From Microbotryum violaceum (lineage: Eukaryota), in NCBI GenBank assembly GCA_001244265.2, contig CDLV01000007.1:1674001-1738000 (forward strand): a stretch of 64,000 nucleotides of DNA, read 5' to 3'. The translations under genes were made by a program, and so were the position numbers. Positions 131 to 46,359 of the stretch are shown here, piece by piece (the stretch's first letter is position 1; each line of letters opens with the position of its first letter). The notes below the pieces were generated by a model that ran no database searches, had not been told where the DNA came from, and saw only the letters and a list, made by a program, of their open reading frames with translations.

Positions 131-1003
131 ATGAGCTCGGCAAGCTTGCACGCTCGCACCCCCTCGGAAGCGCGGCTGTTCAACCTGTGCTGGAAGGATC
201 TTCAGGAACGACGGTCGGGAACGTGCGGAACGAGCCGGTGTTCGAGCTCGGGATCCCCGTCGCAGTCACTTCACGAGTACGACAGCGACAGTGAGGAAGA
301 CCAAGACCCCGACTTCCCCATGTTGACCCCCTCGATCATTGAGGAAGAGGAGGACGCTTTTGTTCGAGCGGCGGCCAAGGCGCTGCAGCAGCTTCAGTCC
401 GGCGGAGTCGTCCCGGCAGGAGGCGCGCCACGAGCGATCTTGCGCCCGTCACTCAATTCGCAAAGCTTGTTCGGACCGGACTACAGTTTCGACTATGTGC
501 ACAAACACCACGACGTCGACTGGTGCTCGCAACAGGATTCGCCCCAAGCCTCGTCCTATACGAATGCATCGGCGTCGGACGGCGGATATTGGTCTCCGGC
601 TTCTCTGAGCTCTTCAGGATCGTCGTCGTCGGGCGGGTCGTACTCGTCCATCTCGTCGCGCGAAGGCGAAGACGGCGTCGATGACTACATTTTCTCCAAG
701 CCTTGCTCGGCCGAGTCTACAACTCCTTCGTCGGTCTCATCCTTGGCCGCTCGTCGAGGCCGACCAATGCGGATCAAGCTCCCACCTCGCCCGAACTCGT
801 TCGGTTCTATCTCGCCTCCGGATCCGGCCGCGGAGAGACCCGAAGCGACGCGCAACTTTAACTCTTTGCACCGCCCCGTCGGCGTCTCCAACAACTTTGC
901 TGGCATCTCGTTGCGTTGCGACAAGAACGAGTTCGAGTCCGACCTCGATCGACCGCTGCGATTCAAGAGTCGTTCGCCGAGCAAGCACGGTTTCGCCTTT
1001 TGA
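131..1003 (+). CDS. Ser-rich low-complexity hypothetical protein
   Basis: 290-aa open frame with host-like GC-rich codon usage; no recognisable domain; true start could lie upstream. Confidence 0.55.
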   Translation: MSSASLHARTPSEARLFNLCWKDLQERRSGTCGTSRCSSSGSPSQSLHEYDSDSEEDQDPDFPMLTPSIIEEEEDAFVRAAAKALQQLQSGGVVPAGGAPRAILRPSLNSQSLFGPDYSFDYVHKHHDVDWCSQQDSPQASSYTNASASDGGYWSPASLSSSGSSSSGGSYSSISSREGEDGVDDYIFSKPCSAESTTPSSVSSLAARRGRPMRIKLPPRPNSFGSISPPDPAAERPEATRNFNSLHRPVGVSNNFAGISLRCDKNEFESDLDRPLRFKSRSPSKHGFAF

Positions 1004-1490
1004 GCGGCGCCCGTCCAAGGCGAACCACCCTACGTTCTGCCGAATTCTGCCGCTGTACTAACCGTCTCCTCATATCTGTTGTTGTATTTCCTACCTTACT
1101 ATCACTAGCACCCTCGTTGCACTCGTTCAATCTTAGTGATATAATCCTAATGTCAAGCTACCGTCGGCGGTCGCTTGCTCATTTTTGAATCTGCTGCATG
1201 CTGCAGCCTGCCGCCGAGAAAGTCACGTGATTCGGGCGTGATCTCGCGAAAGGCTTTCTATACCTGAGATGAGTTCTTCTCTCAGAAAAGTATGCACAGT
1301 ATGCACAACACCCCGACCAAATCAGTATCCAGAAAGCGGTGCTCGCTCGGCCGAGCCGGATTGACGTGGCTGAGAACAACTCGCGATCACGCCTTCGACT
1401 TGTGACCCGCCCTCGGATCTCGGTGGGTGCGCCGCGCAGCTCTCCGTCATCCGTGCTCCACTCAGACTCGGCAAACTCCAAGCGGCCACC

Positions 1491-3285
1491 ATGTCGACCA
1501 AGATAAAGCTGAGGAACGTCGCTCGAGCTACGAGTGCTCGGCAAAGATCCATTCCAACGACCTCACGATTGTTCGGCAGTAGTAGCACCAGCCGAAGCAG
1601 CAGCGATGCGAGCGCATCAACTTCGACCTCGACTTCGACGTCTGGCTCGAACCCAGCCATGTCGTTCCCATGCGTCGACCAGAACGAGTCACGTACCCAG
1701 CTAATACTCGAACAACGTAAAAAAGCGCAAGCGCAAGCGCAAGCTTCGACATCCTCTGCCTCGTCCTCCGAGTCGAACGAGCTGTCGAACCTGCCTTCGC
1801 CGCCTCCATCATCATCGGTAAATGAGCCCGAGACTGGTCCCGAACCCGCCTATGCGAATGTCGTCACCGGTTACGAGCTGTACTACCATGACCAACCTTA
1901 CGCCCTCGACTATGGAGGTCATCTCCCCTCTTTTCACCTCGCATACGAAACTTGGGGCAAGCTCAACGCCGACAGATCCAATGCGGTCCTCGTCCACACG
2001 GGTTTGTCAGCATCCTCTCACGCTCACTCGACGGCGCAGAACCCGGCCGAAGGGTGGTGGGAGAAATTCATCGGACCGGGTAAAAGCATCGACACGGACA
2101 GATACTTTGTCATGTGCACCAACGTTCTCGGTGGTTGCTATGGCTCGACCGGACCGAGCTCGTTGGATCCGAGCGACGGCAAACCCTACGCGACCCGCTT
2201 CCCCATCTTGTCCGTCTTCGACATGGTCCGAGCGCAGTTCCATCTCTTGAGCTCGCTGGGGATTGAGAAACTGTATGCGAGCGTGGGAAGCTCGATGGGT
2301 GGTATGCAGAGTCTCGCGGCGGCGCATCTCGAACCGGAGCGGGTCGGAAAAGTCGTCAGTATCAGTGGCACAGCGCGGAGCAGTCCTTCGAGTATCGCCA
2401 TGAGGCATGCGCAGCGAAGTGGTACGTTCGGAGGATGTTACTGTGTGCGGTTTTTTTTTTACGCGACTGATGCGATCTTGTTTTGTGTTGACGCAGTTTT
2501 GATGGCCGACCCCAATTGGAAACGAGGCTTCTACTATGACGATCTACCCCCACACACGGGCATGAAACTCGCACGACGTCAGTTTAACCTCATCGAGTGT
2601 ACTCTCGCCTGGTCCCAGTACTGAAGCAACCACATGGATTATCCCCACAGAGATCGCCACCATCACCTACCGGTCCGGCCCCGAATGGGAACAACGCTTC
2701 GGACGCCGACGTCGCGACATCTCGTCCCCGTCGTCCAGCTCAGCCTCCCCACCCGTCCTTTGCCCCGATTTCCTGATCGAGACCTACCTCGATCACCAAG
2801 GCGAGCAATTCTGCCTCAAATATGACGCCAATTCGCTCATCTACATCTCCAAAGCCATGGACTTGTTCTCCATGTCCCGTGAATCGTTGGATGATTTGAC
2901 GGCGCGAAGGAGTAATCCCGAACAAGTGGGGGCGAGTTCATGCCCGCTCCCCACAAGTTCGACACCAGGGACGGGAAGAAAGTCGTCCAAATTCAAACCT
3001 TCCACAAAATGCTTCATTTCCTCCCTCCCCTTTTCGCACGCCTACCTCCCCTCCCTAACAGCCGGCCTTTCCCGCATAACCCATCCGACACTCATCATGG
3101 GCGTTCAATCCGATACGCTCTTTCCTATCGAACAACAGCGTGAATTGGCGGAATGCTTGAAGGCGAATGGGAACGAAAAAGTGGTGTATTACGAGTTGAA
3201 TCAGCCCTGGGGGCATGATACATTCTTGTTGGATGTGAGTAATGTTGGAGGAGCGATCAAGGGGTTCTTGGAGGGGAGCGAATGA
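1491..3285 (+). CDS. MetX-family acyltransferase, Cys2-type serine O-succinyl/acetyltransferase (homoserine O-acetyltransferase-like), 3 exons
   Basis: Motifs [30 protein letters not shown] (nucleophile), KYDANS and [12 protein letters not shown] introns 2422-2496 and 2578-2650 join the frames. The Arg/Ser-rich N-terminus resembles a mitochondrial presequence. Confidence 0.9.
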
Positions 3286-5701: not shown

Positions 5702-6319
5702 ATGAATAACTTTCTACTAGATTTGTTAGCTCTAGGAGCTATTTTGTCAGGTATTATGGTTATTACAGCTAAAAACCCTGTTATTTCTGTACTATTCTTA
5801 ATTGCTGTATTCATTAATGTCGCAGGCTACTTAGTTTTACTAGGTGTAGCCTATTTAGGACTTGTATATTTGATTGTTTACGTTGGTGCAATCGCTATCC
5901 TGTTCTTATTTGTAATTATGATGCTTAACTTACGACTAGTTGAACTAGTTGACACTGGTCAAGAGTATACTAAAGTTTACCTATGAGTGCTTTTTTAGCT
6001 TCGCTTATTTTCTTTGAATTATTATCAATTTTACCAGCAAGGTGGATCTGGTGGTAAATACTTATTTAATGTGTTAAATAAAAGCCTACTAGGTCTTTCT
6101 TCTAATACTGATTTGTTAAATTCAGAAGGAGTTAATAATGCATTCAATCCTAATATTGCTGACAGTACATTGACAACATTTACACAAATTGAAAGTATCG
6201 GTCAAGGTTTGTATACATGTGCATCCTTATGATTAGTTGTAGCTAGTGTCATTTTCTTACTAGCTATGGTTGGACCTATTGTGTTATGTATGACACCTTT
6301 CGGTAAAGACAAAGTATAA
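5702..6319 (+). pseudogene. nad6: Mitochondrial NADH dehydrogenase subunit 6 copy in NUMT, two compensating frameshifts
   Basis: NPVISVLFLI...YVGAIAILFLFVIMML...QIESIGQGLYT.ASLWLVVASVIFLLAMVGPI, with TGA=Trp at 6230. The LPMSAFLASLIFFELLS segment (~5975-6040) is in a shifted frame. TAA at 6317-6319. Confidence 0.9.
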
Positions 6320-6469
6320 TGCAGACCTCATTTTCCTCCCCCTTTTTAGGTCTAAATATTTTTACCATAGCAAAGTTATAGTCGATAAAGAAACTAAAAA
6401 GGAGCTGGTGAAAATAAGCGAGAGAAAAACTAAAAAGAAAAAAAATCGAAGATGAAAAAGTACAATGAA

Positions 6470-6731
6470 GGTTCAACGACTAAGAAGTGAGATATACTTT
6501 TAAGTCCTGATATATAAAAATAAAAAAGGACATAAAGGCTACAATAACCTTCACTTTCTCTTTCCCTTTCTCTTTCCAAGAGAAAGGGAACAAACATAGT
6601 TGAGAGAGAGTGCCCAACGTTCATACAAACCTATGAATGATGACATAGTCTGAACTTAATAGTAATATTAAGGTGTTAATTTTGCCCAGGTTTCTTTTTC
6701 GTTTTTGTCTAATAAAAAAAGACAAAAATAG

Positions 6732-6770
<39 letters not shown>

Positions 6771-6789
6771 GGGCATCTAACATCTATTG
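6470..6789 (+). other. 3' portion of a mitochondrial group I intron
   Basis: R-like GTTCAACGACTA (~6471) and S-like GATGACATAGTCTG (~6638) can form P7. Terminal G at 6789 immediately precedes the nad3 coding sequence. Confidence 0.7.
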
Positions 6790-7088
6790 TTAATCCTATT
6801 TACGGTCAAGTTAGAGCACCTTTCGCTATTCAATACTATTCAGTAGGTATTCTATCCTTAATTTTTGATCTAGAAATTGCTGTACTGTATCCTTTAGCTG
6901 TAACATTATATCAGGTTACTAGTTTTGGTTTCTGAGTAGCAATGAATTTTTTAGTCTTTTTAACAGTCGGTTTTGTTTATGAGTACCAGAAAGGTGCACT
7001 TAAATTTACGGACAATAGATCAGCTATTGTAAGATCAAGCCTAGGCCTCCCCTTTTTACCAGCAGGTAAAAACCTAGATGAAAAGTAG
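6790..7088 (+). pseudogene. nad3: Mitochondrial NADH dehydrogenase subunit 3, 3' exon only, in NUMT
   Basis: (F)NPIYGQVRAPFAIQYYSVGILSLIFDLEIAVLYPLAV...GFW(TGA)VA...LTVGFVYEYQKGALKF. Missed by the ORF track (no ATG, code 4). Confidence 0.88.
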
Positions 7089-7473: not shown

Positions 7474-7969
7474 CGGCACGTGACCCCGGTCGGTGGCCGT
7501 CTGCTGCTGTCTGAGGACCCCGAAAGCCCAGCCTGAGGCGCGTAGGTAAAAACCGCCAAAATCCCCGATTTTGGACTTCATTTGTCCACCAATTTTTGGA
7601 TTTTCCGGCCAAAAAGGTCCCCAAAAGATCCAGTTTATCTACGTGCGTCCAAAAATAGCTCTAGAATTGCTTCAAATGCTCTAAATCATCTTCAAAAATC
7701 GCGAAAACGCCGTCCGGACGTTTTTCGCCCGGACCGAATCGCCGGAGCCCGCGCGCGCGTCAGCCGCTTCAGTTCTGCTTCGCCGAGGGCTCCTCACCTG
7801 CACTTACTGCCTACCTCTTTGACTATGATTTAACGTGGCCATCGTATACATGTAACGTACAACGAGAGGTAAGATCGATTGCAGTCACTCTGCGAAGCAG
7901 TAAGCTAGCTACCGTGAGATGTACGAACCAAGTCCAATCGACAGTTGTTCTTCTCCTATGTTGCTGGCG

Positions 7970-9357
7970 TCACAACTGACAGGTATCATGCCTCATTTCA
8001 ATACAAAGCAGACAAGAGAGCCAATTTGCAAAGGTGTAGCTGACGTGACGTTTCCGTCGATCGACCCAAACGGTGGGATCTTGGCGAATGTCGTGTATTG
8101 CCTTGCTCGCAATGGCATCCGTATTTGGGCAAGAATGGACATTATTGATGAGCACTCTCTGGGCCATATGTGCAGAGCACAATTGCAGCTCACTTTCTTT
8201 ACGTCTGTCTTCGATGTACCCTATGTTTTCCGTCTCATTTGCGGTCGAAAAGCGAATGAAGGTCGCTTGTCCTGTCCAACGAATGGACCTCGCAACTCCT
8301 GACACGGCTTCGAGACGGGCTGCACCCATTGAATGCACTAAGCCTCGGAGGACACTGGAGTGCATTTCACCGTGCTTGGACAAATTTGCTTTTGATGTGG
8401 GATCGGAAACTTGGGAAGTCGAGGTAGTGGCGCCGTGCCTTCCCTTGAGTAGGACAGCTCTGAGATGGAAGCATTGATGTGCCCGGCGGTGCTGGATCAA
8501 GCTTTTCAGATCAAGCGCAAGCTGACGAGATTCGTGACGCAGCAGGGATGGGAGCCGAATAATCTGAGCCTGTGAAAGAATGCTGGTTCCATTTAGTGTT
8601 GCTACACGAAACCAATTGCTTAGATGAACCTACACGACCCGGCAAGCTTTCATTTGCTGTTACAATGACGTCGAGCAGGAAGCGTTCCTCTGCTTGAGCA
8701 TCGGCCTCGTCATAGGCCTGCTGAACGGCAAGCCTAGAATCGGAAGAGATGAGTAATCAGCTCAGAGGAGGCTGGTACAGGTCTCATGGCACTCAACTTA
8801 CGGTGCAGTATCATTGTTAAGGCCAAGAGCAGCTAAAGAGCGAACAGCGTTTTCAACCGACTTCCGCTCTTTCGGGTCCAGCACGACGAGACCTTTCTCC
8901 AAGCCACGTTGTCCCTAGGAAAAGCACGAAAAATAATCCCAATCAATCACGCTATCGAATAGACGAAGGCTTTGGCTGCTTCCCAACGAAATCGAGCCGC
9001 GTGTGCAAAGACGCGCTACACCTGAGGATCCTTGAGGGGGTATATTGCTTCTCTATGAGCAGTGGCGGCAGCACCTCCAGAGCCTTAACGATGAGAGGCT
9101 GACTTTCGATGTCGACACCTAGATAAATTTCCATCCACTTTTGGCTACTGATAACGATCGAACGCATGCGCTCGGCGTAATCTATATGCCGCCAGATCTT
9201 TCGACACCGAAAGGCAGCCGGTGCCCAGCGATAGCAATTGACCGGTAACCTTGCTTACGCGCCGCAGTAATTGCTCCACGATCCTTGAACTTGTCCCTCC
9301 AAGCATCGAGCGGCCTAGGAAGAGTATCAAAGTCGAGAGGCTCGTCTGTCGACCATG
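7970..9357 (-). pseudogene. Degenerate multi-exon cargo ORF of element A, unknown function
   Basis: Series of protein-like minus-strand segments (e.g. GLEKGLVVLDPKERKSVENAVRSLAALG; AVQQAYDEADAQAEERFLLDVIV) separated by intron-like gaps and frameshifts; no domain recognised. Confidence 0.4.
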
Positions 9358-10269
9358 AAAGCTGTATCTGGGTTATCCGGGCGTCTGCAGTGGGTTGTCG
9401 AAGCGGAAGGTGAGAAGCTCAAGACACCCTCACGTCCAAGAAGGGTGCCATTTGCTCGAAATCATCGTCAAGGAGCTCAATATCCGGATCGTCTAGATAC
9501 ATTTCGTCGAAGCTGGCGAAGCGAGAACGTAGGATAATGACGATGATGGCACAGACGACGCGACGCGGCGGGGGAGGCAAGAGACGGCGCACTCAAACGA
9601 GACGGCTCGTTCAACCAGCCAAGAGGCTTCTAATTGCAGAATCGAACCATTAGAGCCCTTGTTGTGAATTCGGTACAGGCCAGAGTGTTTCGCGCGCGCT
9701 CCGCACGTTCTTGAGGGTCGGTAAACTCTGGCGTACCAAGCCGAATGTGGCTGAAACGGGTCCAGAGTTGTCCACTGGCACCTACGGGCCTAGGACCCCA
9801 CCCGCACCGGCGCACCTGATTTGTCCACCCCCGACTACGCGCCTTCGCGATTTTGGCCCATCTGAGGCCACCTCTGGCTATATACATAAGCACGCTGAAA
9901 AGTGGCGCGCGCGGCGCGCCTTCGATCCTCGCTTCCGCGCGGCGTAGCCGACTAGGGCAACTTGCTAATGAGATTGACCTATTATTAGGGAGTACTTGTG
10001 CAATCGCCCACAGAGCTGTCTCTTCTAGCCTCCCCCGCTCAGCGCAAAATCAGACCCGCCTCAGTTCTAACACGAGCACCAACTATTGTAACACACAGTA
10101 ACACATTCTCGAATCAATCTACGACATTTGTATCAGACAATGGGCAGGCATAAATGGAATCGCTTCAAGTTCTGACCTGACAGGCTACTTCGAGGGACAT
10201 CCTGACTATAAGCCCCGAGGCCTTCGTTCGGACGCTCGAATCCGCACCAACATCCCCGGAACCCGGCAC

Positions 10270-11570
<1,301 letters not shown>

Positions 11571-11685
11571 GGCACCATGAGTGTCAATTCACCAGTTAGG
11601 CAATGACCGTCTCGAGTTTTCCGTGAGCGTGTGTAGCCATCTAGCTTGTATATTATGTCAATGGAGATCCTGCATTGCAAACATG

Positions 11686-12545
11686 GTTCACCCCGAGGGT
11701 ACAACGCACTCCGAAGGCGCAAATTCTTGTTCAATTTTTAACCTTAGGGCAGGGCGTAGATACACTACAACAGAGTCCCGCGCCTCCGGAAATGAGGAAG
11801 CGGTATGCGACGACATGCTTCATCAATTCTAGGACACTCTTAACAAGCACTGTACAACCGGCGTGGCGATGTGTACCCGCCGGAGGTACACACGACCGGT
11901 GCCCTCTCCAGCTGTGTACCCCTGGGGTTCCACGGCTCAGGCGCGGTCCGTTGCCGCCGACGGCCTTGCTGACTGCACTACAACAAACTTCCACGCCCCC
12001 GTTCAAAGCTCAGGATGTGTTTGGGGTTACGGAATGGAATAACCTCTTGCGACGAGACCGACGAAAAATTTGTTTGCTACATCCGACTTGCACTCTGAAG
12101 AGCCCGCAAGGCCAACGCACTTCCCTAGCTGAATTCTTCGTTCGAATCAGCCTCCGAGCAGAGCAGAGCGAAACTGCACTACAACGAACTTCCACGCACC
12201 CGCTCAAAGCCCAGGATGTGTCTGAAGTTACCGAAAGGATTCACCTCCCGCCGTTGGAGACTCGTATATGTTATTATACAGTGATCTGCCACCGGTGACC
12301 GAATTTGCACCCCGGGGGTACACAAGGCGCAAGCGGGAAAGCGCCTGTGTACTCCCGGGGGCACGCAGGACTGGTCCACTCTTCCGCTGTGTACTCCCGG
12401 TAATGATCACACCCCGCGCGCCGAATGACTGTGTACCCCGGGAGTATACAGCTTTGTCGGCGGCACAGGCCGGGTCCCTCGGGGTTACACTCTTGTACTC
12501 TTGTCGCGCGCCGACTCTGTGTATGTGTACCCCGGGAGTACGCAG
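11686..12545. repeat. Interspaced palindromic repeats, consensus TGTGTACYCCGGGRGTACACA, ~42-bp period
   Basis: Copies at ~11686, 11871, 11913, 12304, 12346, 12388, 12430, 12471 and 12524, with unrelated ~20-bp spacers. Confidence 0.85.
11972..12248 (+). repeat. ~75-bp degenerate direct repeat (two copies)
   Basis: ACTGCACTACAAC(A/G)AACTTCCACGC...CAGGATGTGT...ACCTC at ~11972-12046 and ~12173-12247. Confidence 0.85.
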
Positions 12546-13082
12546 CCCCTACAAGGTCCTTGGCCGATGGACCGATATCCCTGCTCACTCGACTACATAA
12601 ACTATCACGTCAACGGAGTAGGTATGCGGTGAAGTATTTCATTGATTTTTGCTGACATGTTATCACAAGCACTGTACAACGGAGCGCCGTTGGACGCGTC
12701 TGGACCCATGCTTTGGGGTGCTGTTGGAACAGAACAACTACAGCAACACCAATCCTCACCACCCCCCGCCCCCCTCTGGCAACGTTCCCAAACCTGAACC
12801 TGCAGATGTCAGCACCGATGCGCACCAAATTTTAGTCTTTAACTTAGCAGAACCTTCAAGCTTGTCACGTACTGCAGTTCGGTGAGTGTGGCGGTGGCGA
12901 CCGGCTCGTGGGATCGTGGTCGTCAACGCGTCAACGCCTGATTAAGGCTGACATTCATTTTACTTTTGTGCACTGGCGTACATTTCCACCATGTGCGATA
13001 TGGGCCGCATACAAAAAGCAAAGTCCTTCAATAACAAATAATCTACAGTCAACAAATGCGCCAAACCATCCCTAGCTAGCCC

Positions 13083-13819
13083 ATGGGCTCGTGGAGAATC
13101 TCGAGGTCGTCCGAGTCTTCAACGCTTGTCAGCCCGACTCTCCGTCGCCCTCCCCGAGCTCAGCATCATCTTCTTCCTCGACCTCGTGCTCCGATCGTAA
13201 ACCCAAAACTTCTTCCACTCGTCTTTCATACACATCATCGCGGTCTCGCTCGGCATGCTCCGCGGCTGGATCGGGGGTCAGGCCAAGTTCCCTTCGGAAT
13301 GCGTCGAGGTCGATGGTTGTGTGGCGCACGTCCACGGCAGAAGGACCTGATGAGCGGCGGCTCGACTCAGTGACGAGGCTCTGTATTTGAGTATTATTCA
13401 GCGTCGAAAGGCGGCGACCGAAATGACGTGGACTACCGCGCGACCGGCGCAACACCTGTTTCGCCCGTCCGGCGAAAACTCCTCCGATCAAACCGAATGC
13501 CGTGGGCCGCGATTCATGAACTGCGGGTAAACGGGTAAACGCATTCTGAACCAGACAACCGAGAGATCATCGCATTCGGCGAGCCGATCCAGACGCTCTT
13601 TGACCAAAATCTGCCGGCGTTGAAGCACATACCACACCGCAGTGCCAACCTCGCCCGCGGGTGGAAGCGGTAAACGCTGAAGCGTTGCTGGGAGCAGACA
13701 GGAGAGGCAACACATCGTATGGTCGGTGGGCTTCGATTCAAGATATACGACAGAAAGCGTGAGGGAACAGAAAGTAGTAAGACCAGGACCGTGATTGATA
13801 GCGGCGCGTCAAGCGGCAA
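13083..13819 (-). CDS. Element B cargo gene 2, hypothetical Cys-containing protein with acidic tail (probably disrupted)
   Basis: ORFs 13514-13819 (CVASPVC...CGMC) and 13129-13491 (acidic tail) lie on the same strand, convergent with cargo gene 1. Confidence 0.35.
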
Positions 13820-14302
13820 TGCTGTTGCTCGCTCGCGCTCAGGCTCGCTACGGCCGGTCTACCAGCGTGGTGAGACGGCACGTGACTTAACCACGTCCAT
13901 CAATGCTACCTTATCCCCACCGCTAATGAGGTAATGATGTAATGATGTTCTAATCGAGCTTCTTCTCGCTACTAATCTAAAGAAGAAATTGACGATGAGT
14001 TTTCCGAATATGCTTTATACACAATGGCAGCATTTATAAGATTGGATTACCCCGATACGAGCTCGCACGTACATGAGATGAACGTGTTGAAGGCCACACC
14101 AGCCTCCATGTTGCGCTAGTCCTCGCGCCATCCAGCAACCCGGGTTACGGGCGGGCAACATGTATGGCTACGCCGCGCGGAAGCGAGGGTCGGAGGCGCG
14201 CTGCGCGCGCCACTTTTTAGCGTGCTTATATATATAGCCAGAGGTGTCTGAGGCCCACAATTTGTCCACTCGGGCACTACGCGCCTCAGGCCGGCCTTTC
14301 GG

Positions 14303-17300
14303 CGGTCATGTCGAGAGTGGGCTCCGGTGCGGACAGGGTACTACAGGTGATGTAGGGCGTCTATGGGCGTCTCTGCTGGCTCTATTATGCTCTACTACGC
14401 TCAAAAAGTATGTATACGGCAAGGGAAGATGATACATGAAGATTAGCGGAAGCTGTAGCAATTTCGTTTTTTTTCGGGGCGTACCGCACATTTGTTGGCG
14501 CAGAGTACGCCCCAAATGGCTCACGCTCCGCCCTAAAAGGCGTACTGGGTCCGAGGTCGGTACGCCCGGGGCCTACGTGAATTGGCACACGTACGCTCCA
14601 AAACTTTAGATCGCATTTGTGGCTGCTACAGCGCATTGTATGCACTCTGACAGTCACCAGTTAGGTCTAAGGGCGTGGCTGTACAACCCTCTAGCAGATG
14701 AAGCAGATACAAGTTGATGGTCACAAAGTCGAAGCTGTTACTACTTGGAGCACCGCGCAACGACTGAGGCCGGCCTGCCCTAGGCTCTGTACGAACGCTG
14801 ATATGTGTGCTGTAGCAATCAAGGGGGTAAGACGGTACCTAGCTCCAGCATTAATTGCTGTCAACCCTGCAAAGTCGCACTTAGCCGTGACGGATAAGTC
14901 AACCTGGCGACTTGACTCAGAGGACTAATTTTTCCGACAAATTAGGTCTCACTTTGGCGTCAGTGCTACACGCGGCCATCTGCGGGCCCGCATCGGAAGG
15001 TGCTTCCTTTGAGTCGACCACCCAGGCCACCAACGATGGCCCGTGGAAGACGAAAGAAATGGACGCCAAAGGCTCATGCCCCACCTCCGATATCTGAGTG
15101 TGAAGCAAGACTTCAATCGCGGCGGACGCGTCTCCAAGTCCTCGACCTACCCGGTGCCGTTGCGTCGCCACCGGCGTTCTCAGCTCCTTTCCCCTCGGAG
15201 CCAACACACATACATAAATCGAGCTCGAAGCCTCATTGGAAATCGAGCCTCGAAGACGTGTTTGAAGATGTTGAGCCCGCCGGGTCCTCCCAGCGAGGCT
15301 TCTCCGACGACGTTGACGCGACCCATTCACATTCACCGGTCAGCTGCGAAGGGTGCGTACTGCGTCAGTCACCATCGTTACTTCCACCCCTAATTTTCTG
15401 TACTGCTTCTAGTCTATCAATGAAGTGGACCTGTCTCCTGGATCGGAGAAAAAGCTTTACGAGCCACAGATTCGCCAACGAGTAGACTACAGCTCGGTGA
15501 GCAAACGGACATTCCCATCGTCGCGGCTGCCCGTTCATTGTCCATCGTCAGGGGCCATTTCTGAACTGACGTGATGGCTCATTCCACCCATGGCCCGTTC
15601 CACCCAAATCGACCATTTGGGCGCTCTAGTTACAATCGAGGAGGTCAATGACTTCGCTCCAAGGGGACAACCCGAGGTCTTTGGACCCGCCTGTTCCCGA
15701 GTCGCGACCGCACGGCGAGACGAGCGATTACTGTACCGTTGCAGGTTCTGCTGGGGCCGATCCTGAGGAACTAGACGACACGTTGGATCATGCTCGAATG
15801 GACAGCAAAAGTATTCTGCGCGGATCTCGTACAAACCGCACCAGTTCGCGACTCGCCTTCGTCTCATCAATTCAGCGTCGCGACATCGATTTGTTCTTCG
15901 GAAGAATCGAACACCCATGAATCTGATGACCTCTTGGGTCACGACGACAGTGCTCTGAACATGGAAGGTGAGCGAGTCTTCAATGCGCAACTGCGGTACA
16001 GGCTCACTCAATTGTTGAATCTATCCTCAGAAATCCCCCTTGGCAAAATTGACCTCGACTTCGACGATGTGACATCATCCGTGACCGAGCGCCTTTCACC
16101 ACGCCCCTTCAAGTCTATTCTGCTGGGTACGTTACAAAAATTTCATCACAAAGGGAGGAGCACGTAGCCCATGCTTCCGTCTTGGGCCTAACGAACCTGC
16201 GTTTGTTACAGTGCATCGCTGTGAGGTTCCAACCATCTGGCCATCGCCAAGCAAATTTCGGTCCGCCACATGTGGTGTAACCGCATACGAATATAACGGC
16301 GATTTGTTTCTGTCGCTTCGAGACGTATTCAACGGTGCCCGCAATATGTTTCTTTGGAGGGGCCCACACCCACGTGCTTCACCATCAAGCCCAACGGAAG
16401 CAAAGCACCGTACCCTGGACGCGGGACGCTCGAAGCTCAAACCTGGTCTTTCGCGATGACACTGGCTTGGAGCACCGTTGGTCATTCCGAGCCGTCACTC
16501 AGCTACGCGATCAACACATTTCAACGAAAAGTGGGGTTGCAATGAGTCCGGATGGCGAAATTCAATGGCATCAATTTGATGGACTCAATCCAATAGGGTC
16601 AATTGCGCATCTCGCCACCGAGCTCGTCCCAGATTTGCGCGCCATGGCTTCTTATAGCTGGTGGGTGTACAAAGGAAACCGGAATGCGCTGCGATCACTC
16701 AATGCCATTCTAACAAGGCGATGGACGACCTGGCTGGAATTGATGATTACCGACCTCGAGCCATCTGCTGCGCAAACGTACGGCGCGCGCAGGCGAAACC
16801 CCGATGTGAAAAGCTGAGGGACCCTTACTACCGACCGTGGCTATGGTGCGTCAGCGCTACGAGGTCATGGGTCTGGAGTTGGGCGTCGTGGAGGAGGGAG
16901 CACAGGCGGGCCGCCAGACGCTCAAAAAATTCAGGGAAGCGGGCTCCGCCCGCAAGTATCAAATTGACAAGTTAAGGATTCTGGAAAAGGTACGTTCGGG
17001 GACGTGATGGCGCATTGGCTGCAACAATGGTGGTGTCACGGCCATCGGTTCTCTGAACATCCCCTCTTTGTTCACAGGCTATCGGCTTGCACCCAGGGCA
17101 TTCGCTGTTCGAGGACAAGTATTGGGCGCACAAGCCTGTCATGGTCAAGCTCAGATGCCCAACTTGTGCCGCGGGAGGCTGTGTGGAACGCCGGTCGCCT
17201 TCACTCAGGATCTCATCCGCTGTAACTTATGCGGATACTTACATAAGTTGCATGCCGAGATCTCCAAAGAGGAACAAAGGACGACAAGATGCATCATATG

Positions 17301-18713
17301 TGTGAACGTGGTGTCAACGAAGGATCTGCGCGCAGACGAGGTTTAGGAAGCTCTCTGGAACGTAAGTGGCCTAATGTATGCCGCTTTGTGGAACTCCCTG
17401 TGTTCCATACTTAATACGGATTTTTACTACAGTGTTTCGCTTGCTAGTTCATGCGCATGGGCTTACAATCAGTGAGGCTTGGAGGCTAGTTAGGGTCCAT
17501 GATTATGGCATCGGGATGGGCTCGGAGCGCAGGCACTGGCTGAAGTCTCATGTCCAGAAGAAAGCGTCAATCTCCAGCTGGTCCCGGGTAACAAGCTGGC
17601 ATGGACTTTCAGCAATGCGAAGCAATTGACAGGAAGCAAGAATCGGGAGTTTCACTTAGTGTGAGTCAGTATCCTGAATAGCATGGCAGAGTGGGCTGGC
17701 TTGGCTGACCGGCATTGCCTACTTGTCACTCTTCATCAGTTGCAGGTTCCCACTGAGGCAATACTCAAGAAGACTTGGGGCACAAATGCTAGTTTGGTGA
17801 AGACATTTATCAAAGACACCAAAAAGACTTTCAAGCATCTGAACGTAGGCAAGTGACCAAAAACCAGTTTGCGCAGAAAAAACTATCAGGCTGATCCTTA
17901 CCCCAAGCTCTTTCTTGCACATCGAACATAGCCGCCTCCTTCTCCAGTGCGAAGAAGCTGGCGGCGGAACGGTACACCGATAATGATAGCGATGAGGATG
18001 GCCCTGTGAGACATCACTACTTCCCCATGTTGCAGAAGTGGTACTTATTTGCAATGCCCTTGGTCCAGATCATCCCACTGGGTGGGCATACAGCGTCCTG
18101 TAGAACCATGGCAGTTGTGTGATTCGGCCCCTGTATCGCTTCATGTACCATATCTCTTTTTGCGCTGTAATCGATGCTCTACTAAGGGGGTTTGCGATTG
18201 CTACAGCACACATATCAATGTTCGTACAGAGCCTAGGGCAGGCCGGCCTCAGTCGTTGCGCGGTGCTCCAAGTAGTAACAGCTTCGACTTTGTGACCATC
18301 AACTTGTATCTGCTTCATCTGCTAGAGGGTTGTACAGCCACGCCCTTAGACCTAACTGGTGACTGTCAGAGTGCATACAATGCGCTGTAGCAGCCACAAA
18401 TGCGATCTAAAGTTTTGGAGCGTACGTGTGCCAATTCACGTAGGCCCCGGGCGTACCGACCTCGGACCCAGTACGCCTTTTAGGGCGGAGCGTGAGCCAT
18501 TTGGGGCGTACTCTGCGCCAACAAATGTGCGGTACGCCCCGAAAAAAAACGAAATTGCTACAGCTTCCGCTAATCTTCATGTATCATCTTCCCTTGCCGT
18601 ATACATACTTTTTGAGCGTAGTAGAGCATAATAGAGCCAGCAGAGACGCCCATAGACGCCCTACATCACCTGTAGTACCCTGTCCGCCCCGGAGCCCACT
18701 CTCGACCGTACCC
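14303..18713. mobile_element. Element C: 4.4-kb long-TIR element (MULE-like architecture) inserted in the right TIR of A
   Basis: ~515-bp near-identical TIRs (14303-14820 and 18196-18713; identical ORFs appear on opposite strands in the track). 9-bp TSD GCCTTTCGG at 14294-14302 and 18714-18722. Confidence 0.9.
15036..17346 (+). pseudogene. Element C cargo gene, multi-exon, frameshifted, with C-terminal CxxC pairs
   Basis: Begins MARGRRKKWTPK (NLS-like). Chain of + strand ORFs ends in CPTC...CNLC...CIIC; several frameshifts and stops; no DDE motif seen. Confidence 0.5.
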
Positions 18714-31840: not shown

Positions 31841-32151
31841 TGAAAATTTGCATGCATGTATATACGTCTTGTTTGCCGATCTTACCTCCGTATTTAGCAT
31901 TTGGTTGCCTGATTATCTCATATACGAAGATTTTGCAAATAGTATGAACCTATGTTTTGACTTGACTAACTGAAGTGCCCTCAAATCTCGCCGAGGGAGT
32001 GATCGATGTTGCATGTGAGAATGTGGTGGCGCCGCCGTGGCGGGCTTGCCTGGGCTTGCCGTGCCCGCGATCGATCTGATTGACCAGCGGCAATGAAGGC
32101 ATCAATAGCCGATCGCCACGATCGCCATGACAAGCATGGCTAGCACGGCTA

Positions 32152-35100
32152 CACAAGCGCGCGCGAAACTTATGGCGGTCCGAAGAAATTAGTGCGGCCC
32201 CGGTATGGCGAGCGCCTGTATGGCAGGTGTAAAATACTTGGCAGGTTTTATTTACTAATGCCGTAAGGCGCGTCACCTACGGAAATCGTCAGGCCGCGTC
32301 CCCTACGGAAACCGCCAGGGTTACGGCCTCACGGTTTCCGTAGGGGACGCGCCTTACGGCACCCGTAGATCCCGGCCCTACGGAATCTCTATGGTTACCA
32401 TACAAAAGCCGCAAGTCCCAAGTACGCTAGCCATGTAAAAACCTTATGGCATCCCTGAACTGGGTCTATGAACGAGCCATAGAGATTCTTTAAAGCGTTA
32501 TAGGGTTGTTGACCTCGATCATATATACACTGGATACCTCTGTAACAAGCAACATTAACATATAGCCCAGAACAAATGCCCAACCTAGCAAGCGCAGATC
32601 CTCACGTCCTCGGGCCCCGCCCGCCCGCAAGCTCGTCGACGACCCACCGATTCCCGACCAACCTGCTACGGGCTCTAGTCCCCAATCTTCTTCTTCTTCT
32701 TTTTGGACTTTGGATTTTGAGCGGCCTCTTTGTCGGCTTGGAGACAACCCTATGTCAAACCGCAACCAATGTCCTATCAGTGTCGAATCAAATAGTGCGT
32801 CGAACGAGGACAACTCACCTCCACCAACGAGGCAAAGCTGATCTCGTGATCGGGGTTTTCAACAACTTCCAAACAGGAGATCTGCATTAAATTTGACGAC
32901 GTCCGGGTTGCGATGTCTTGATTCCATCATGACGAGGCATGACCGGAGCAAGTCGATCCGTCAGAAAACTATCGCTCGCGACGAGCGGGGGTGCGCAGCG
33001 TCAGTTCATTCGACCTGCGAATGCATGTCCCCAATTGACCTGCGACTCACCGTTGATGGTCAAATTCAAGGCCGTGCTTGTACTCGCCCTCAAGGTATGC
33101 GTCGACCGCCATTTCCGCGAGGGTAGAGGAAACGCGATTCACCTTTTCGGCAAAGGTGTTCGACCTGGACCCGGGCACGTTGGCCGTTTTGTGAGATTCA
33201 TTCCCCGTAAGATCGGCCTCGACCGCTGCTTTGCGGTCGGGCTGCTTGACGGCTTGCCACTGAGATATGAAGCAAAAGTGAGGGGTTAAGCTGAAATCTA
33301 GGGTTGAGGGCGTGTCACCCAAACACGTACCAACACGCGCCACCAGCACATATGCTCGTCAGTGATTGTGACTTCGAGGTTTTTGTACCACGACTTCATT
33401 GTTGTTCCCAACACTAAAGAGTCGCTCTGGGCGCGCTTAATCTGAGCGCGAGCCGACGGTCAGAAGGCGTGGCGCAGCGGCGTGCAAGGCTGATGTCAAT
33501 AGGCAGGCCCGGACGTGGACACCACGCCGCTTACATGATCTTCGAGTTCAGATCGGCCTTGCATTAGCGCACTCGGAAGGTGGCGCATTAGAGCCTTGTA
33601 GAAAGCTCGATGCTTGACGTCGCTTTCTGATACCAAACCGTCCTTGCGTAGAGCAGCCTACAATTGGTGCAGCCTGAGTCAGTGAACAGCCCAGCACAGC
33701 ACGCGAGAACATAGTTCACCTACCGCGAACATAGGAGCAGCACCGTGGTGCTTGCAGAGGAATGGCGTGGAGACGAAGATCTCGGCAGCTGACCCCACAT
33801 CGGACTGGCACAGTCATAAACACAGCTTGATGAGTAGGAGCTTATGGGCGAGACCGAAAGAACATCCACCAACCTTGATGTGGTCCAGAGAGGGAGCGGT
33901 GAGCACGTCGATCAGTCGGGGGAGCACGTTAATCAGTGGGGCAAGCTGAGCTTCCAAATGATCCAATCGAGCGCTGATTGTCGCGGCAAGGACAGACAGG
34001 CCATCTGGGCCACCTTGCGCGTCCGGAGGCTGTGGGTGTTTGTGGTGAGTGCAGTCAGCGGAGTGGGGCACGACGCGGGGGCGCATCTGCACCAGCTCAC
34101 GTTGCTCGGGCCGTCGAAATATGGCGTAGAGTACTGGGTTTAGAATGCATGACCTGGTTGGGTTATGCGCGGTGGTCAGCGTGTCACCAGGATGTTTCGG
34201 CTGACGTCATTGCAGGGGTGCAACGTACTTCGAAAGTCTTGTCCTCTGTTCCCCAGTGTCCGAAACAGCCAAGGACATATCGGTGCGCTGACGCTTGCGC
34301 GGCTTGTCGCCCATCGCCCACGTCACCGTCGTCGTCGTCGTCGTCATCGCCGTCAGTTAGCTGTCCAGATTGGCAACGATACCTTATCAGCACCCATAAC
34401 TCCTCGACCAGGGGACGCGGGACGCGGGCACGAACGAAGAAAGCGTCCTGGACTTCGGCCTTTGATTCGGACTTCAGGGTGGTGAAATTTTGGAGTTGGT
34501 TTAAGCTAGGGTGACGCGGAAGCCGGACAAGCAGGTTCAGTACTCACTCGGGCTGGTCGCTTGTCGTTGCGGCGAGGTGTGGTTGGGGCTTGATGCGATT
34601 TAGCTGACGTCGTCGAGCTCTGCGGATTGGACAGACGTGGGAGTGCCATGCATCAGCTCGAACCCGGCGAAAGATGAGTGTCTGCTTCTCCTCCCAAGCC
34701 TTACGTGAGAATCCAAGGTGGCAAGCGCCGCAGTTGTCGACGCCGGATGGTCGTGTCGTTCGTCACTAGTCAATGACTGCACATGCGGCATCTAGGGACC
34801 GCAGTAGCTGAGGCTGGGCCGACGTCGCGTCGGCAGCGGTGAGTTGCAGCACATACCTGTGACTCGTGAAGCGCCTTGGGCAAATGGAGGTGGGTGGGTC
34901 CCGAATGAGGGTCGTCGGCGGGGCCTGGCGACACGACGACCCTCGACGCAGCAGTCGTGGACGTCAAGGGTTTGGCGGTGTGGTCTGACGCCCGAGCGTG
35001 ACGCGCCCGATCAAGCTCGAACCTGAAGGAGCAGTGGAGTGAGCGGGTCATGGAGTCGACGCATGAAGCGGGTCAGGGCGAGCCATGTCGGCGATGATGG

Positions 35101-36119
35101 TAACACAGGGCTGCTCCTGCTTGGCGACATGTGGTGGCCGGGAGCCAAGGTCAGCGCCACGTCTCGCGCGGTCTGACCGAGGGCGGGACGCAAAAGGACG
35201 CACTTGGGACGCTGGACGATCTGAACACTGAAACTGCGCCTCAAACAATACCCACCACGGTCGAGAACATCTTCGGACGCCTTTGTTCGAGGAGACATGA
35301 CGTGGCTGTCCCGTTTGTGGGCAAAGTGGTTGTCCACTTATTCTGGGGCGGGGCGAGGGAGAGAGGGTGGGGCCCCCCATGCTTCTCAGTCGGGTCCTCG
35401 CGCGCTCAGCGCTCTGAGCGCTGGGGATCTCAGATCTCAGACCTCTGCTCCGAGACTCTCACCGGCGCACGCCAGCCTGCTGAGCAGACTTCAGCTGGCC
35501 GCGTGAGGGTGCAGTCTCGACTTATGGCACTGACTCGCTATTGATTACTCGCTGCCTCAGCTGGTACAAATGGACTTTGGACTCTATAAAGCGCGAGCCC
35601 TGAAATGTTTCAGCGACCGTGGGATACACTCTCTGCATCGATATGGCTCGGAACAGCGACCGCTCGCGACGTCACGTGCCACTTTTCGGATGCAGTGACA
35701 CGCAATTTCCCTATCGGGACAAAACTAATGCTACCATACACCAGGTGGAATAAACCCATACGGCCTACCTCCAGGTTCCGTACACGTAAAACATTACCGA
35801 TCCCGTCTCTTGTGCACTTTAGTGCTCACTTACGTCTCATTGCCGAATGCAATAAGGGTTGAATCTTTACCGCGGCCGCAAAGGCCGTTTTTACGCTAGC
35901 TGTACCGCACGCGTAGGGTCACCGCAAACCGGCGCCCCTACGGACCTGATAACCTAATGTCCATACGGATACTAGAACGACCCCCTAAGGCAGCCATAAA
36001 AAAGCTTTGCTCTTACAGGAGCTCTATAAAACCGCCTTACCTAAATTGCAACACCTCCGTAGAGAAGACATACGGCGGGTCCTGCCACAGGAAATCCATA
36101 ACGTTCGCGCGCGCATGTG
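32152..36119. mobile_element. Element E copy 1: 3.97-kb TIR element flanked by TA
   Basis: TA|CACAAGCGCGCGCGAAACTTATGG ... CCATAACGTTCGCGCGCGCATGTG|TA; many subterminal TACGG/CCGTA motifs; near-identical to 42322-46291. Confidence 0.93.
32560..35320 (-). CDS. Element E cargo gene, multi-exon hypothetical protein (also in copy 2 at +10170-10172)
   Basis: Minus-strand exon-like segments (LSVLAATISARLDHLEAQL; AALRKDGLVSESDVKHRAFYKALMRHL; FAEKVNRVSSTLAEMAVDAYLEGEY) bounded by GT/AG; ends approximate. Confidence 0.45.
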
Positions 36120-36293
36120 TAACTCGCCCGCGCGGGGAGCTCACTTGGCTGGGTTAACGGACCTGCCGATCTGGCCCCAAGTCAAAATTCGACGACGACC
36201 AGCTGGAGCGTCCCCTTACCCACTTTTGTCATCTCATTCCACGCTCCGAACAACACACCGCTTTCCGACTCAACCCTCGACCCCGCTCTGGCC

Positions 36294-42189: not shown

Positions 42190-42321
42190 CGAAAAGTGAA
42201 AGGTTGCGAGGCGGTATACATATCACACAAAGGCAACCAAGACACGGGTGTTCTCCGAGTCTGTAGTGGTGCGCAGGGCAGGGCGCTTTTATGAAACGCT
42301 CGGGCGCCGGCCACTAGGATA

Positions 42322-45300: not shown

Positions 45301-46291
45301 ATGTGGTGGCCGGGAGCCAAGGTCAGCGCCACGTCTCGCGCGGTCTGACCGAGGGCGGGACGCAAAAGGACGCACTTGGGACGCTGGACGATCTGAACAC
45401 TGAAACTGCGCCTCAAACAATACCCACCACGGTCGAGAACATCTTCGGACGCCTTTGTTCGAGGAGACATGACGTGGCTGTCCCGTTTGTGGGCAAAGTG
45501 GTTGTCCACTTATTCTGGGGCGGGGCGAGGGAGAGAGGGTGGGGCCCCCCATGCTTCTCAGTCGGGTCCTCGCGCGCTCAGCGCTCTGAGCGCTGGGGAT
45601 CTCAGATCTCAGACCTCTGCTCCGAGACTCTCACCGGCGCACGCCAGCCTGCTGAGCAGACTTCAGCTGGCCGCGTGAGGGTGCAGTCTCGACTTATGGC
45701 ACTGACTCGCTATTGATTACTCGCTGCCTCAGCTGGTACAAATGGACTTTGGACTCTATAAAGCGCGAGCCCTGAAATGTTTCAGCGACCGTGGGATACA
45801 CTCTCTGCATCGATATGGCTCGGAACAGCGACCGCTCGCGACGTCACGTGCCACTTTTCGGATGCAGTGACACGCAATTTCCCTATCGGGACAAAACTAA
45901 TGCTACCATACACCAGGTGGAATAAACCCATACGGCCTACCTCCAGGTTCCGTACACGTAAAACATTACCGATCCCGTCTCTTGTGCACTTTAGTGCTCA
46001 CTTACGTCTCATTGCCGAATGCAATAAGGGTTGAATCTTTACCGCGGCCGCAAAGGCCGTTTTTACGCTAGCTGTACCGCACGCGTAGGGTCACCGCAAA
46101 CCGGCGCCCCTACGGACCTGATAACCTAATGTCCATACGGATACTAGAACGACCCCCTAAGGCAGCCATAAAAAAGCTTTGCTCTTACAGGAGCTCTATA
46201 AAACCGCCTTACCTAAATTGCAACACCTCCGTAGAGAAGACATACGGCGGGTCCTGCCACAGGAAATCCATAACGTTCGCGCGCGCATGTG
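42322..46291. mobile_element. Element E copy 2
   Basis: Same termini, TA flanks and orientation as copy 1; the ORF track is duplicated with offset 10170-10172. Confidence 0.93.
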
Positions 46292-46359
46292 TAGGCGTGG
46301 CTCAAGCTCTTCTCACCCGTCTCGCACCCCTCGTCCACAAAGCACTCTTTGTCGAAAAC

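What the first reader, a model, noticed from the sequence alone, without database searches (positions are those of the whole stretch)
11686..12545. Regularly interspaced palindrome array (42-bp period, unique spacers) between two convergent unknown genes inside a fungal TIR element
Seen: nine copies of a ~20-bp palindrome (TGTGTACYCCGGGRGTACACA). Five follow a ~42-bp period (12304, 12346, 12388, 12430, ~12471), a sixth lies ~52 bp later, and another pair is 42 bp apart (11871, 11913). Spacers are unrelated, so this is not a minisatellite. The array lies in the middle of element B, between convergent cargo genes, not at the termini where transposase-binding repeats usually lie. Inference: 42 bp is four helical turns, fitting phased binding sites for a dimeric protein. 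Alternatively a transcript would fold into evenly spaced hairpins that could be processed into ~20-nt spacer RNAs (repeat-spacer guide-like architecture). I know no described fungal element with this layout.
Basis: partly seen in the sequence, partly recalled or inferred. Interest (0 to 1): 0.8.

Follow-up and report, generated by a model that had tools for sequence, protein, structure and literature searches.

The report
Captured operator array in fungal transposon
The palindrome row is real but is not a CRISPR-like guide array: it is most likely a cluster of protein-binding sites that a fungal jumping gene picked up, together with a zinc-finger gene, from a second, primase-and-helicase-encoding mobile element that appears not to have been described.

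Summary
The array is real (9 sites against 0.3 expected), but the true unit is a 22-bp palindrome, spacers are fixed across 30 copies, partly derived from one another, and the 42-bp period is not constant. Element B is a rearranged non-autonomous derivative of a 10-11 kb KDZ transposon of an anther-smut fungus (Microbotryum); its two 'cargo genes' are fragments. In full-length copies the same palindrome also sits once in the divergent promoter between a zinc-finger-like gene and a truncated primase gene (15 of 16 copies). That gene pair has a diverged relative at two loci of the genome: an element with a primase and a herpes-UL9-like origin-binding helicase, whose inverted ends and promoter carry C5G5 palindromes with different arms. 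Sister KDZ families lack the module. Best reading: a captured operator/origin-type array bound by the zinc-finger protein, working like EBV oriP/EBNA1, baculovirus hrs or plant VANC targets. Binding is inferred, not shown. A guide-RNA role is unlikely (about 4%). Earlier notes of this scan describe four-gene KDZ copies of this genome but, in four look-ups, neither the array nor the primase-helicase element.

The parts
9861..9868 (+). left 8-bp target site duplication (tctgaggc)
   Evidence: identical 8-mer on both sides of the element
9869..9949 (+). left terminal inverted repeat of element B (begins CACCTCTGGCT)
   Evidence: 81 nt, 94% complementary to 14166-14246; similarity extends to about 140 nt in other copies
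9869..10702 (+). left end of the parent KDZ transposon, including the first exon of the transposase gene
   Evidence: B 1-834 matches positions 1-856 of the full-length copy on C14; ORF 953-1804 of L051
10703..11570 (+). 3' half of the zinc-finger-like gene (residues about 214-451 of P0002; the finger itself is missing), fused to the transposase exon by the rearrangement that made B
   Evidence: predicted chimeric proteins of the same build exist in M. silenes-dioicae (P0008-P0019)
11685..11705 (.). degenerate palindrome copy
   Evidence: score 5.3; at the edge of detection, found in 2 of 30 copies by the same scan
11843..11858 (+). motif ACAAGCACTGTACAAC in front of the palindrome pair; second copy at 12665-12680
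   Evidence: a similar motif (AAGACATTGTACAAC) precedes the palindrome clusters of the primase-helicase element; post hoc, not tested for significance
11870..11934 (.). palindrome pair (11870, 11913) with spacer Sa
   Evidence: present in 30 of 30 arrays extracted
11972..12300 (+). about 190-200-bp tandem units between the two palindrome clusters (2 in B, 3 in most full-length copies, more on C11); partial unit at 11763-11788
12304..12544 (.). main array: six palindromes (12304, 12346, 12388, 12430, 12471, 12524) with spacers S1-S5
12706..12790 (+). possible remnant of the terminus of the donor primase-helicase element (suggestive only)
   Evidence: pairwise score above all 200 simulations, z=6.3, but not recovered by nhmmer against the whole window
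12882..13018 (+). inferred intron (GTGAGT..AG) of an RNA running from the array antisense into the transposase 3' end
   Evidence: joint in one contig of run X5 at depth 842, read as GT..AG on this strand; donor kept in 21 of 26 copies; one run only, RNA status is the tool's guess
13080..13659 (-). last exon of the KDZ transposase gene (acidic tail)
   Evidence: B 2104-3791 matches full-length 5244-3595; ORF 4062-4976 of L051
13663..14246 (+). right end of the parent KDZ transposon with right TIR (14166-14246)
14247..14254 (+). right 8-bp target site duplication

Best explanation
The array is a cluster of double-stranded DNA binding sites for a dimeric protein encoded by the parent element, most likely the 451-aa zinc-finger-like protein. 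SHOWN: B derives from a 10-11 kb KDZ transposon by one inversion and two deletions; the parent carries, between its transposase and its partner gene, a module of array + zinc-finger-like gene + divergent primase stump; one perfect copy of the palindrome sits in the divergent promoter of these two genes; a diverged element without a transposase has the same gene pair, with the primase running on into a UL9-like helicase, two C-run/G-run palindromes at the same promoter position and clusters of them in both inverted ends; sister KDZ families have none of this. INFERRED: an ancestor of the KDZ family captured the left part of such a primase-helicase element; there the palindromes were end/origin-type iterons and an autoregulatory operator; in the KDZ the arms changed to TGTGTA in array and promoter together, as expected if one protein still reads both; the protein represses or tunes its own promoter and, through the array, acts as enhancer or anti-silencing platform, possibly driving the spliced antisense RNA that enters the transposase 3' end. 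Unit number changes by template switching and slippage between palindromes. B keeps the array but not the finger, so it would be served (or would titrate the protein) in trans.
For: Structure of parent and B. Promoter palindrome in 15 of 16 full-length-type copies, 62-77 bp before the ATG; both halves rank at the top of all hexamers under the family-1 array matrix and at background under the family-2 matrix. C5G5 core: 25 of 27 genomic sites in the two families, control 3. CxxC..HxxxH pattern kept in both families, 44% (exon 2) and 63% (exon 1) identity; gene spliced in run X5; 12 near-identical members named from M. saponariae. Primase: ESM Atlas 0.96 to AEP_C962R/PrimPol clusters; 61% identity between families; all family-1 hits stop at residue 187-193 of 370. 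Helicase: PHROG 'replication origin binding' E 1e-5 and 'replication' E 1e-6; UniRef names the 100% identical P0037 a replication origin-binding domain protein. Sister KDZs (67% identical core) have the partner gene 5.0-5.7 kb from the KDZ motif but no hit for the zinc-finger gene, primase or palindrome. No new spacers in 30 arrays.
Against: No binding data. The finger is called by motif only: no Pfam hit for P0002, ESM Atlas zf-BED lead 0.77, under its bar, AlphaFold model pLDDT 41 with no fold match. The primase has no Pfam, PHROG or PDB hit and a recognition score under the Atlas bar; the helicase has no Pfam origin-binding hit. Family-2 promoter halves fit their own terminal arms only weakly (top 3%, 8%, 21%, 67%). 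Among 14 B copies palindrome columns vary more than spacers (20/1706 against 8/1424), several units are decayed, and 1 of 16 promoter sites is deleted: no sign of purifying selection at this scale. Non-coding homology between the families is weak: 190-bp units z=2.1-3.4 pairwise but E about 2 by nhmmer. Promoter-array identity could also come from gene conversion. The interior of sister KDZs was not read; 94 of 106 candidates were scored.
Confidence: 0.55

Rival explanations
1. Relic: the palindromes were origin/end sites of the donor element (read by the origin-binding helicase, which family 1 has lost) and now have no function; they persist and reshuffle only because palindromes provoke template switching, and the promoter copy was homogenised by conversion.
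For: Family 1 keeps only a primase stump and no helicase; palindromes are no better conserved than spacers among B copies; unit number runs from 4 to 9; inverted and deleted spacers.
Against: A perfect copy is kept 2 kb away in the promoter in 15 of 16 copies with unrelated flanks; arms changed in step in both places since the split from family 2; the zinc-finger-like gene is transcribed and spliced.
Confidence: 0.22
2. RNA-level control: the array acts as a promoter or folds as long hairpins in a transcript (antisense to the transposase or in its 3' UTR) and feeds small-RNA self-limitation, like Mu killer (recalled), without guide spacers.
For: Contigs of run X5 cover the distal palindromes at depth about 850 and show a joint that reads GT..AG on the antisense strand; the array folds at z=-3.6.
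Against: Folding follows from the palindromes alone, and pairs units with each other rather than freeing spacers; one run, contigs only, no strand; does not explain the lone promoter copy.
Confidence: 0.12
3. Internal transposition enhancer bound by the KDZ transposase (like the phage Mu enhancer, recalled), which would explain why non-autonomous B kept it.
For: All 8 full-length B copies keep the array.
Against: Sister KDZ families transpose without it; the same core exists in an element with no KDZ transposase; B moves with the array inverted relative to the ends.
Confidence: 0.06
4. CRISPR-like repeat-spacer array processed into about 20-nt guides.
For: Repeat plus spacer near 42 bp; partly transcribed; spacer S1 matches 18/21 a sub-terminal motif of another repeat family of about 40 copies, and one KDZ copy sits 35 nt from such a site (P about 0.004); best spacer match in 46 insertion flanks is slightly better than shuffles (0.374 against 0.388-0.392 mismatch fraction, P 0.007-0.04, post hoc). 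A PIWI fragment lies inside the C3 donor-type element.
Against: 0 of 30 arrays gained a spacer; spacers derive from each other; S4 has 3 outside matches against 4 for the control; flank matches are about 63% identical and scatter over spacers, strands and distances; no Rfam family at gathering level; no nuclease seen; the homologous arrays of family 2 have 25- and 50-bp steps.
Confidence: 0.04

Closest known systems
KDZ (Kyakuja-Dileera-Zisupton) DNA transposons, e.g. Cryptococcus neoformans KDZ1 (10.1101/2025.05.19.654958, passages read) and Zisupton-1_PGr/Dileera (PMC12730594, introduction and passages read)
   Same: KDZ transposase core (PF18758, E 3e-22), about 11 kb, TIRs, 8-bp TSD, extra genes
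   Different: No TET/JBP found among the ORFs scanned; carries a zinc-finger/primase-stump module with an internal palindrome array, which the passages read do not mention; B itself is non-autonomous
EBV oriP family of repeats, dyad symmetry and Qp sites bound by EBNA1 (PMC2964674, passages read)
   Same: One palindromic site used as an array, as a pair and as an operator at the promoter of the putative binder
   Different: No sequence or fold relation shown; fungal chromosomal transposon, not an episomal virus; binding and origin activity untested
Baculovirus homologous regions (hrs) (PMC4535591, abstract and opening read)
   Same: Three to eight repeats each with a 24-bp imperfect palindrome, variable number; origin plus enhancer
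   Different: hr units are conserved over the whole repeat and AT-rich; here spacers are diverged and GC-rich; no IE1-like protein shown
VANC anti-silencing proteins and their motifs in Arabidopsis VANDAL transposons (PMC5735166, passages read)
   Same: Transposon accessory gene plus a short motif multiplied by tandem duplication in non-coding parts, diverging between families
   Different: VANC motifs are 9-bp and not palindromic; no homology found; no methylation data here; the module appears to come from a primase-helicase element
Herpes UL9-type origin-binding SF2 helicases (PMC13483431, abstract read) and AEP primase-helicase mobile elements; Polintons, Polinton-like viruses and transpovirons (recalled; search listings only)
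   Same: Donor element: AEP/PrimPol-like primase followed by an origin-binding-type helicase, inverted ends
   Different: No protein-primed polymerase, integrase or capsid ORF seen at the C3 locus apart from nested LTR retrotransposons; no TSD recognised; relatives found only in Microbotryum

Membership tests
KDZ superfamily (parent of element B) | KDZ transposase domain | tested here: met
   PF18758 E 3.2e-22 in the C14 copy; absent from B, which lost the core
KDZ superfamily (parent of element B) | TIRs and 8-bp TSD (Zisupton/Dileera type) | tested here: met
   8 of 14 elements with both ends have an exact 8-bp duplication, 3 more with a 1-2 nt offset by my reading, 3 none
KDZ superfamily (parent of element B) | placement in Dileera, Zisupton or Kyakuja by phylogeny | not tested
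   no reference transposases were fetched
CRISPR-like repeat-spacer guide array | mutually unrelated spacers | tested here: not met
   2 of 15 pairs related; inverted spacer copies
CRISPR-like repeat-spacer guide array | spacer turnover by acquisition between copies | tested here: not met
   0 of 30 arrays with a new spacer
CRISPR-like repeat-spacer guide array | spacers match targets outside the array | tested here: inconclusive
   2 of 6 spacers searched genome-wide; one 18/21 match to a repeat family, otherwise control level; all 6 tested on 46 flanks with a slight excess; mycoviruses not searched
CRISPR-like repeat-spacer guide array | processing into unit-length small RNAs | not testable with these tools
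   only assembled contigs were available
Minisatellite / decayed tandem repeat | head-to-tail units alike over their whole length | tested here: not met
   Tandem Repeats Finder reports no 42-bp array at score 30; 13 of 15 spacer pairs unrelated; origin by local duplication and inversion is still evident
oriP / hr-type palindrome arrays | array of imperfect palindromes with a cognate site at the binder's promoter | tested here: met
   (sequence layout only)
oriP / hr-type palindrome arrays | linked replication-initiation genes | tested here: inconclusive
   met in the donor-type element by sub-threshold or single-library hits; family 1 keeps only a primase stump
oriP / hr-type palindrome arrays | protein binding, origin or enhancer activity | not testable with these tools
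   needs experiments
VANC/VANDAL anti-silencing system | accessory gene plus family-specific motif multiplied in non-coding regions | tested here: met
VANC/VANDAL anti-silencing system | homology to VANC proteins | tested here: not met
   P0002 has no Pfam hit and relatives only in Microbotryum
VANC/VANDAL anti-silencing system | sequence-specific loss of DNA methylation | not testable with these tools
   no methylation data
Polinton / Polinton-like virus (donor element) | protein-primed polymerase, integrase or capsid genes (features recalled) | tested here: not met
   ORF lists of the C3 locus show only the gene pair, a PIWI fragment and nested LTR retrotransposon ORFs; read by eye for the nested parts

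The most novel reading that the evidence does not exclude
Anther-smut fungi host an undescribed class of self-copying DNA elements (AEP primase plus UL9-like origin-binding helicase plus a zinc-finger initiator or regulator, palindrome iterons at both inverted ends and at the divergent promoter, no transposase or capsid), and a KDZ transposon captured its iteron array and zinc-finger gene and turned them into a private, sequence-specific control circuit (autoregulation plus enhancer, anti-silencing or antisense control) that non-autonomous copies such as B tap in trans.
Probability: 0.3. Interest if true: 0.8.

Novelty: new variant of a known kind. Interest (0 to 1): 0.6.

Why it matters
What the extra genes of large fungal DNA transposons do is open; TET/JBP is the only cargo with a proposed role in the paper read (PMC12730594). 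Here a cargo gene comes with a candidate target site that can be tested directly, in two diverged versions (TGTGTA arms against GAG/AT-type arms around a shared C5G5 core), which gives a built-in specificity swap. It would be a fungal counterpart of the plant VANC system with a traceable origin. Tracing the array also uncovered a primase/origin-binding-helicase element for which two paper searches (a third, listed nothing on Microbotryum) and two look-ups in this scan gave no fungal description; most subscription papers and Repbase were not searchable, so this is not proof of novelty.

Tried and rejected
Rejected: hAT or MULE identity of B (first guess from the 8-bp TSD; parent has a KDZ domain); B's two genes as intact unknown cargo (fragments); strict 42-bp phasing; simple minisatellite; known RNA family (only a sub-threshold hairpin hit to mir-187, 23.7 against 58 bits); Helitron 3' ends (no CTRR after the palindromes, by eye). 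Led nowhere: AlphaFold of the primase alone (pLDDT 36.5) and of P0002 with 13 rows (41.3); Foldseek PDB (no E<=0.001); PDB sequence searches; longer homologs of the primase (0 of 7999 candidates scored, weak evidence); helicase homologs (1 of 7999, the same gene in M. lychnidis-dioicae); IMG/VR scan (1 hit, an unrelated phage); 22-bp palindrome in JGI metagenomes (0). No run was on record as RNA; of 4 of 14 runs laid, X5 and X7 showed GT..AG joints and X1 and X14 none. Low cover of the 190-bp units in X5 is not used as evidence. Rows dropped: one internal TIR-like match (C2_2208000, position 6215) removed before the flank statistics, 47 to 46 ends; C3 and C2_371500/381000 copies gave no array by the two-anchor extraction and are not among the 30. 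The palindrome scan misses the decayed fifth unit in some copies, so unit counts are lower bounds. No supplements were read.

Full report
OBSERVATION. The region holds nine palindrome-like sites: a weak one at 11685, a pair at 11870 and 11913, and six at 12304-12544. The same scan finds a mean of 0.29 and at most 3 in 300 Markov simulations of the region. Aligning 30 arrays from the same genome shows that the unit is a 22-bp even palindrome, TGTGTACYCCCGGGRGTACACA; the window copies are often one C short, and single-base slips in runs are frequent throughout this assembly. Centre spacing in the window is 42.5, 43, 40.5, 41 and 53 bp; full-length copies have 42, 31, 41, 41 and 45. Spacers are not all unrelated: two of 15 pairs are similar (p=0.007 and 0.0003), spacer 1 is itself a short inverted repeat, and three copies carry it inverted. 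No array has gained a new spacer; differences are point changes and deletions, duplications or inversions between palindromes, with 4 to 9 detectable units.

WHAT ELEMENT B IS. B spans 9869-14246 with 81-bp TIRs and an 8-bp TSD. The genome (33 Mb, 20 contigs) has 8 full-length B copies and many longer relatives. Five relatives with both ends are 10.2-11.3 kb and encode a KDZ transposase (PF18758, E 3e-22). B equals the first 834 bp of such an element, then an inverted internal 2.96-kb piece, then the last 0.58 kb. Its left 'gene' is therefore the transposase first exon fused to the 3' half of a second gene, and its right 'gene' is the transposase last exon. Homologs of the second gene are named only from Microbotryum species. 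Size, TIRs and 8-bp TSD agree with Cryptococcus KDZ1 (10.1101/2025.05.19.654958, passages) and Zisupton/Dileera (PMC12730594, introduction and passages).

THE PARENT. Order in the full element: transposase (+), array, zinc-finger-like gene (-), primase stump (+), multi-exon partner gene (-). Contigs of run X5 show GT..AG joints in the transposase, the partner gene and, less cleanly, the zinc-finger-like gene; run X7 shares two of them; runs X1 and X14 show none and behave as DNA. The 451-aa product (P0002) has CxxC..HxxxH near the N-terminus and a stretch that looks HMG-like to me (recalled, no hit); Pfam, fold prediction and fold search gave nothing firm. One perfect palindrome lies 62-77 bp before its ATG and about 100 bp before the primase start, in 15 of 16 copies.

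THE DONOR. A search with a distant homolog found a second family of the gene at two loci, C3 and C1, 44-63% identical with the finger pattern kept. There the divergent gene is long: an AEP/PrimPol-like primase (ESM Atlas 0.96 to AEP_C962R clusters, recognition under the bar; no Pfam, PHROG or PDB hit) followed by a helicase with Walker A and DEAD motifs that hits PHROG 'replication origin binding' (E 1e-5) and whose database twin is named a replication origin-binding domain protein. At C3 the gene is interrupted by LTR retrotransposons; at C1 the whole unit is a giant inverted duplication with frame breaks. The C3 element has inverted ends (92-95% over 80-190 bp) built of about 190-bp tandem units and clusters of C5-6G5-7 palindromes with other arms, spaced 50 and 25 bp, and C-run/G-run palindromes at the same promoter position (two at C1, one at C3). 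No KDZ transposase, polymerase, integrase or capsid ORF was seen in it. Of 27 genomic WC5G5W sites, 17 are in family 1 and 8 in family 2 (control 3, places compared). All family-1 primase hits end at residue 187-193. Sister KDZ families (67% identical core) have the partner gene 5.0-5.7 kb from the KDZ motif against about 7.3 kb in family 1 and no hit for the zinc-finger gene, primase or palindrome; I did not read their interiors. The simplest history is one capture of the left part of a primase-helicase element by a KDZ ancestor. So the array does stem from a terminus, that of the captured element. Direct DNA homology of the non-coding parts is weak: the flank behind the zinc-finger gene aligns (E 0.005), the 190-bp units give z=2-3 pairwise but E about 2 by nhmmer, and the putative terminus remnant gives z=6.3 pairwise but no nhmmer hit.

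MECHANISM. A palindrome that occurs as an array, as a pair and singly at the promoter of a neighbouring DNA-binding gene is the layout of EBNA1 sites at FR, DS and Qp (PMC2964674, passages) and resembles baculovirus hrs (PMC4535591, abstract). A transposon accessory protein with a family-specific motif multiplied in non-coding parts is the layout of VANC (PMC5735166, passages). The family-1 promoter halves are the best possible match to the family-1 array and unrelated to family-2 arms, so promoter and array changed together after the split, as selection by a shared binder predicts; conversion could do the same. In family 2 the fit of promoter to ends is weak. Since family 1 lacks the helicase, the zinc-finger protein is the only candidate binder that travels with the sites. 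What binding does is inference: autoregulation at the promoter, and enhancer or anti-silencing action at the array. One hint: a contig of X5 at depth 842 skips 138 nt that read GTGAGT..AG on the strand opposite to the transposase (window 12882-13018), and contigs of that depth reach the distal palindromes, which suggests an antisense RNA coming from the array; one run, no strand data. Against present function: among 14 B copies palindromes vary more than spacers, and several units are decayed.

GUIDE MODEL. Two spacers were searched genome-wide. S4 has 3 outside matches at up to 3 mismatches against 4 for the control. S1 matches 18 of 21 bases in one repeat family of about 40 copies, and one KDZ copy is inserted 35 nt from such a site (P about 0.004 under three shuffles). 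Over 46 insertion flanks the best spacer match is slightly better than chance (P 0.007-0.04, post hoc, flanks not independent), at about 63% identity and with no common spacer, strand or distance. I record this as unexplained; it does not outweigh the lack of spacer turnover.

NOVELTY AND VERDICT. KDZ elements with extra genes are known, and this scan has noted four-gene copies in this genome. Palindrome arrays bound by an element's own protein are a known kind. New, as far as reach, are the array-plus-operator layout in a fungal transposon and the primase/origin-binding-helicase element it came from. Binding is untested and both protein assignments rest on motif-level or sub-threshold evidence. 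Interest 0.6; best explanation 0.55; most novel reading 0.3.

Noticed in passing
G000:C3:1925140-1942290 (L144, L157, L158) and G000:C1:2426054-2438625 (L146-L149, L160, L161): Primase plus UL9-like helicase element with a zinc-finger-like gene and palindrome-rich inverted ends; only two loci found; C3 interrupted by LTR retrotransposons, C1 a giant inverted duplication centred in the zinc-finger gene (could be an assembly fold-back). Deserves its own study.
   Followed up: partly
L144:5882-6480 (L090:85-876): C-terminal Argonaute PIWI fragment (PF02171 E 3e-23) inside the C3 primase-helicase element, between its 190-bp units.
   Followed up: no
window 12325-12345 and G000:C6:588339-588375: Spacer 1 matches 18/21 a sub-terminal motif of another repeat family (about 40 copies); a family-1 KDZ copy is inserted 35 nt from one such site. 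B in this window also sits about 50 bp from the end of an element with similar termini.
   Followed up: partly
window 7520-14302: B is nested in another element (26-bp inverted ends 7520-7545 and 14277-14302) with broken ORFs at 7970-9254 on the minus strand; no Pfam hit.
   Followed up: no
window 14310-18706: Element with 511-bp, 99% identical TIRs directly beside the previous one; Cys-rich broken ORFs, no Pfam family over cut-off.
   Followed up: no
window 5702-7000: AT-rich mitochondrial insertion with nad6 (PF00499 E 3e-21).
   Followed up: no
window 32147-36121 and 42317-46293: 3977-bp direct repeat, 99.9% identical, each with a 103-bp imperfect palindrome near its start.
   Followed up: no
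window 12882-13018: Possible intron of an RNA antisense to the transposase 3' end, seen as a joint in one contig of run X5.
   Followed up: partly
L011 (G000:C5:2040472-2044484): B copy with a further internal inversion (B positions 380-3245); inversions recur in this family.
   Followed up: no
L067:3720-3980: The 8-bp unit seen three times at window 13924-13948 is expanded to about 30 copies near the right end of the C14 full-length element.
   Followed up: no
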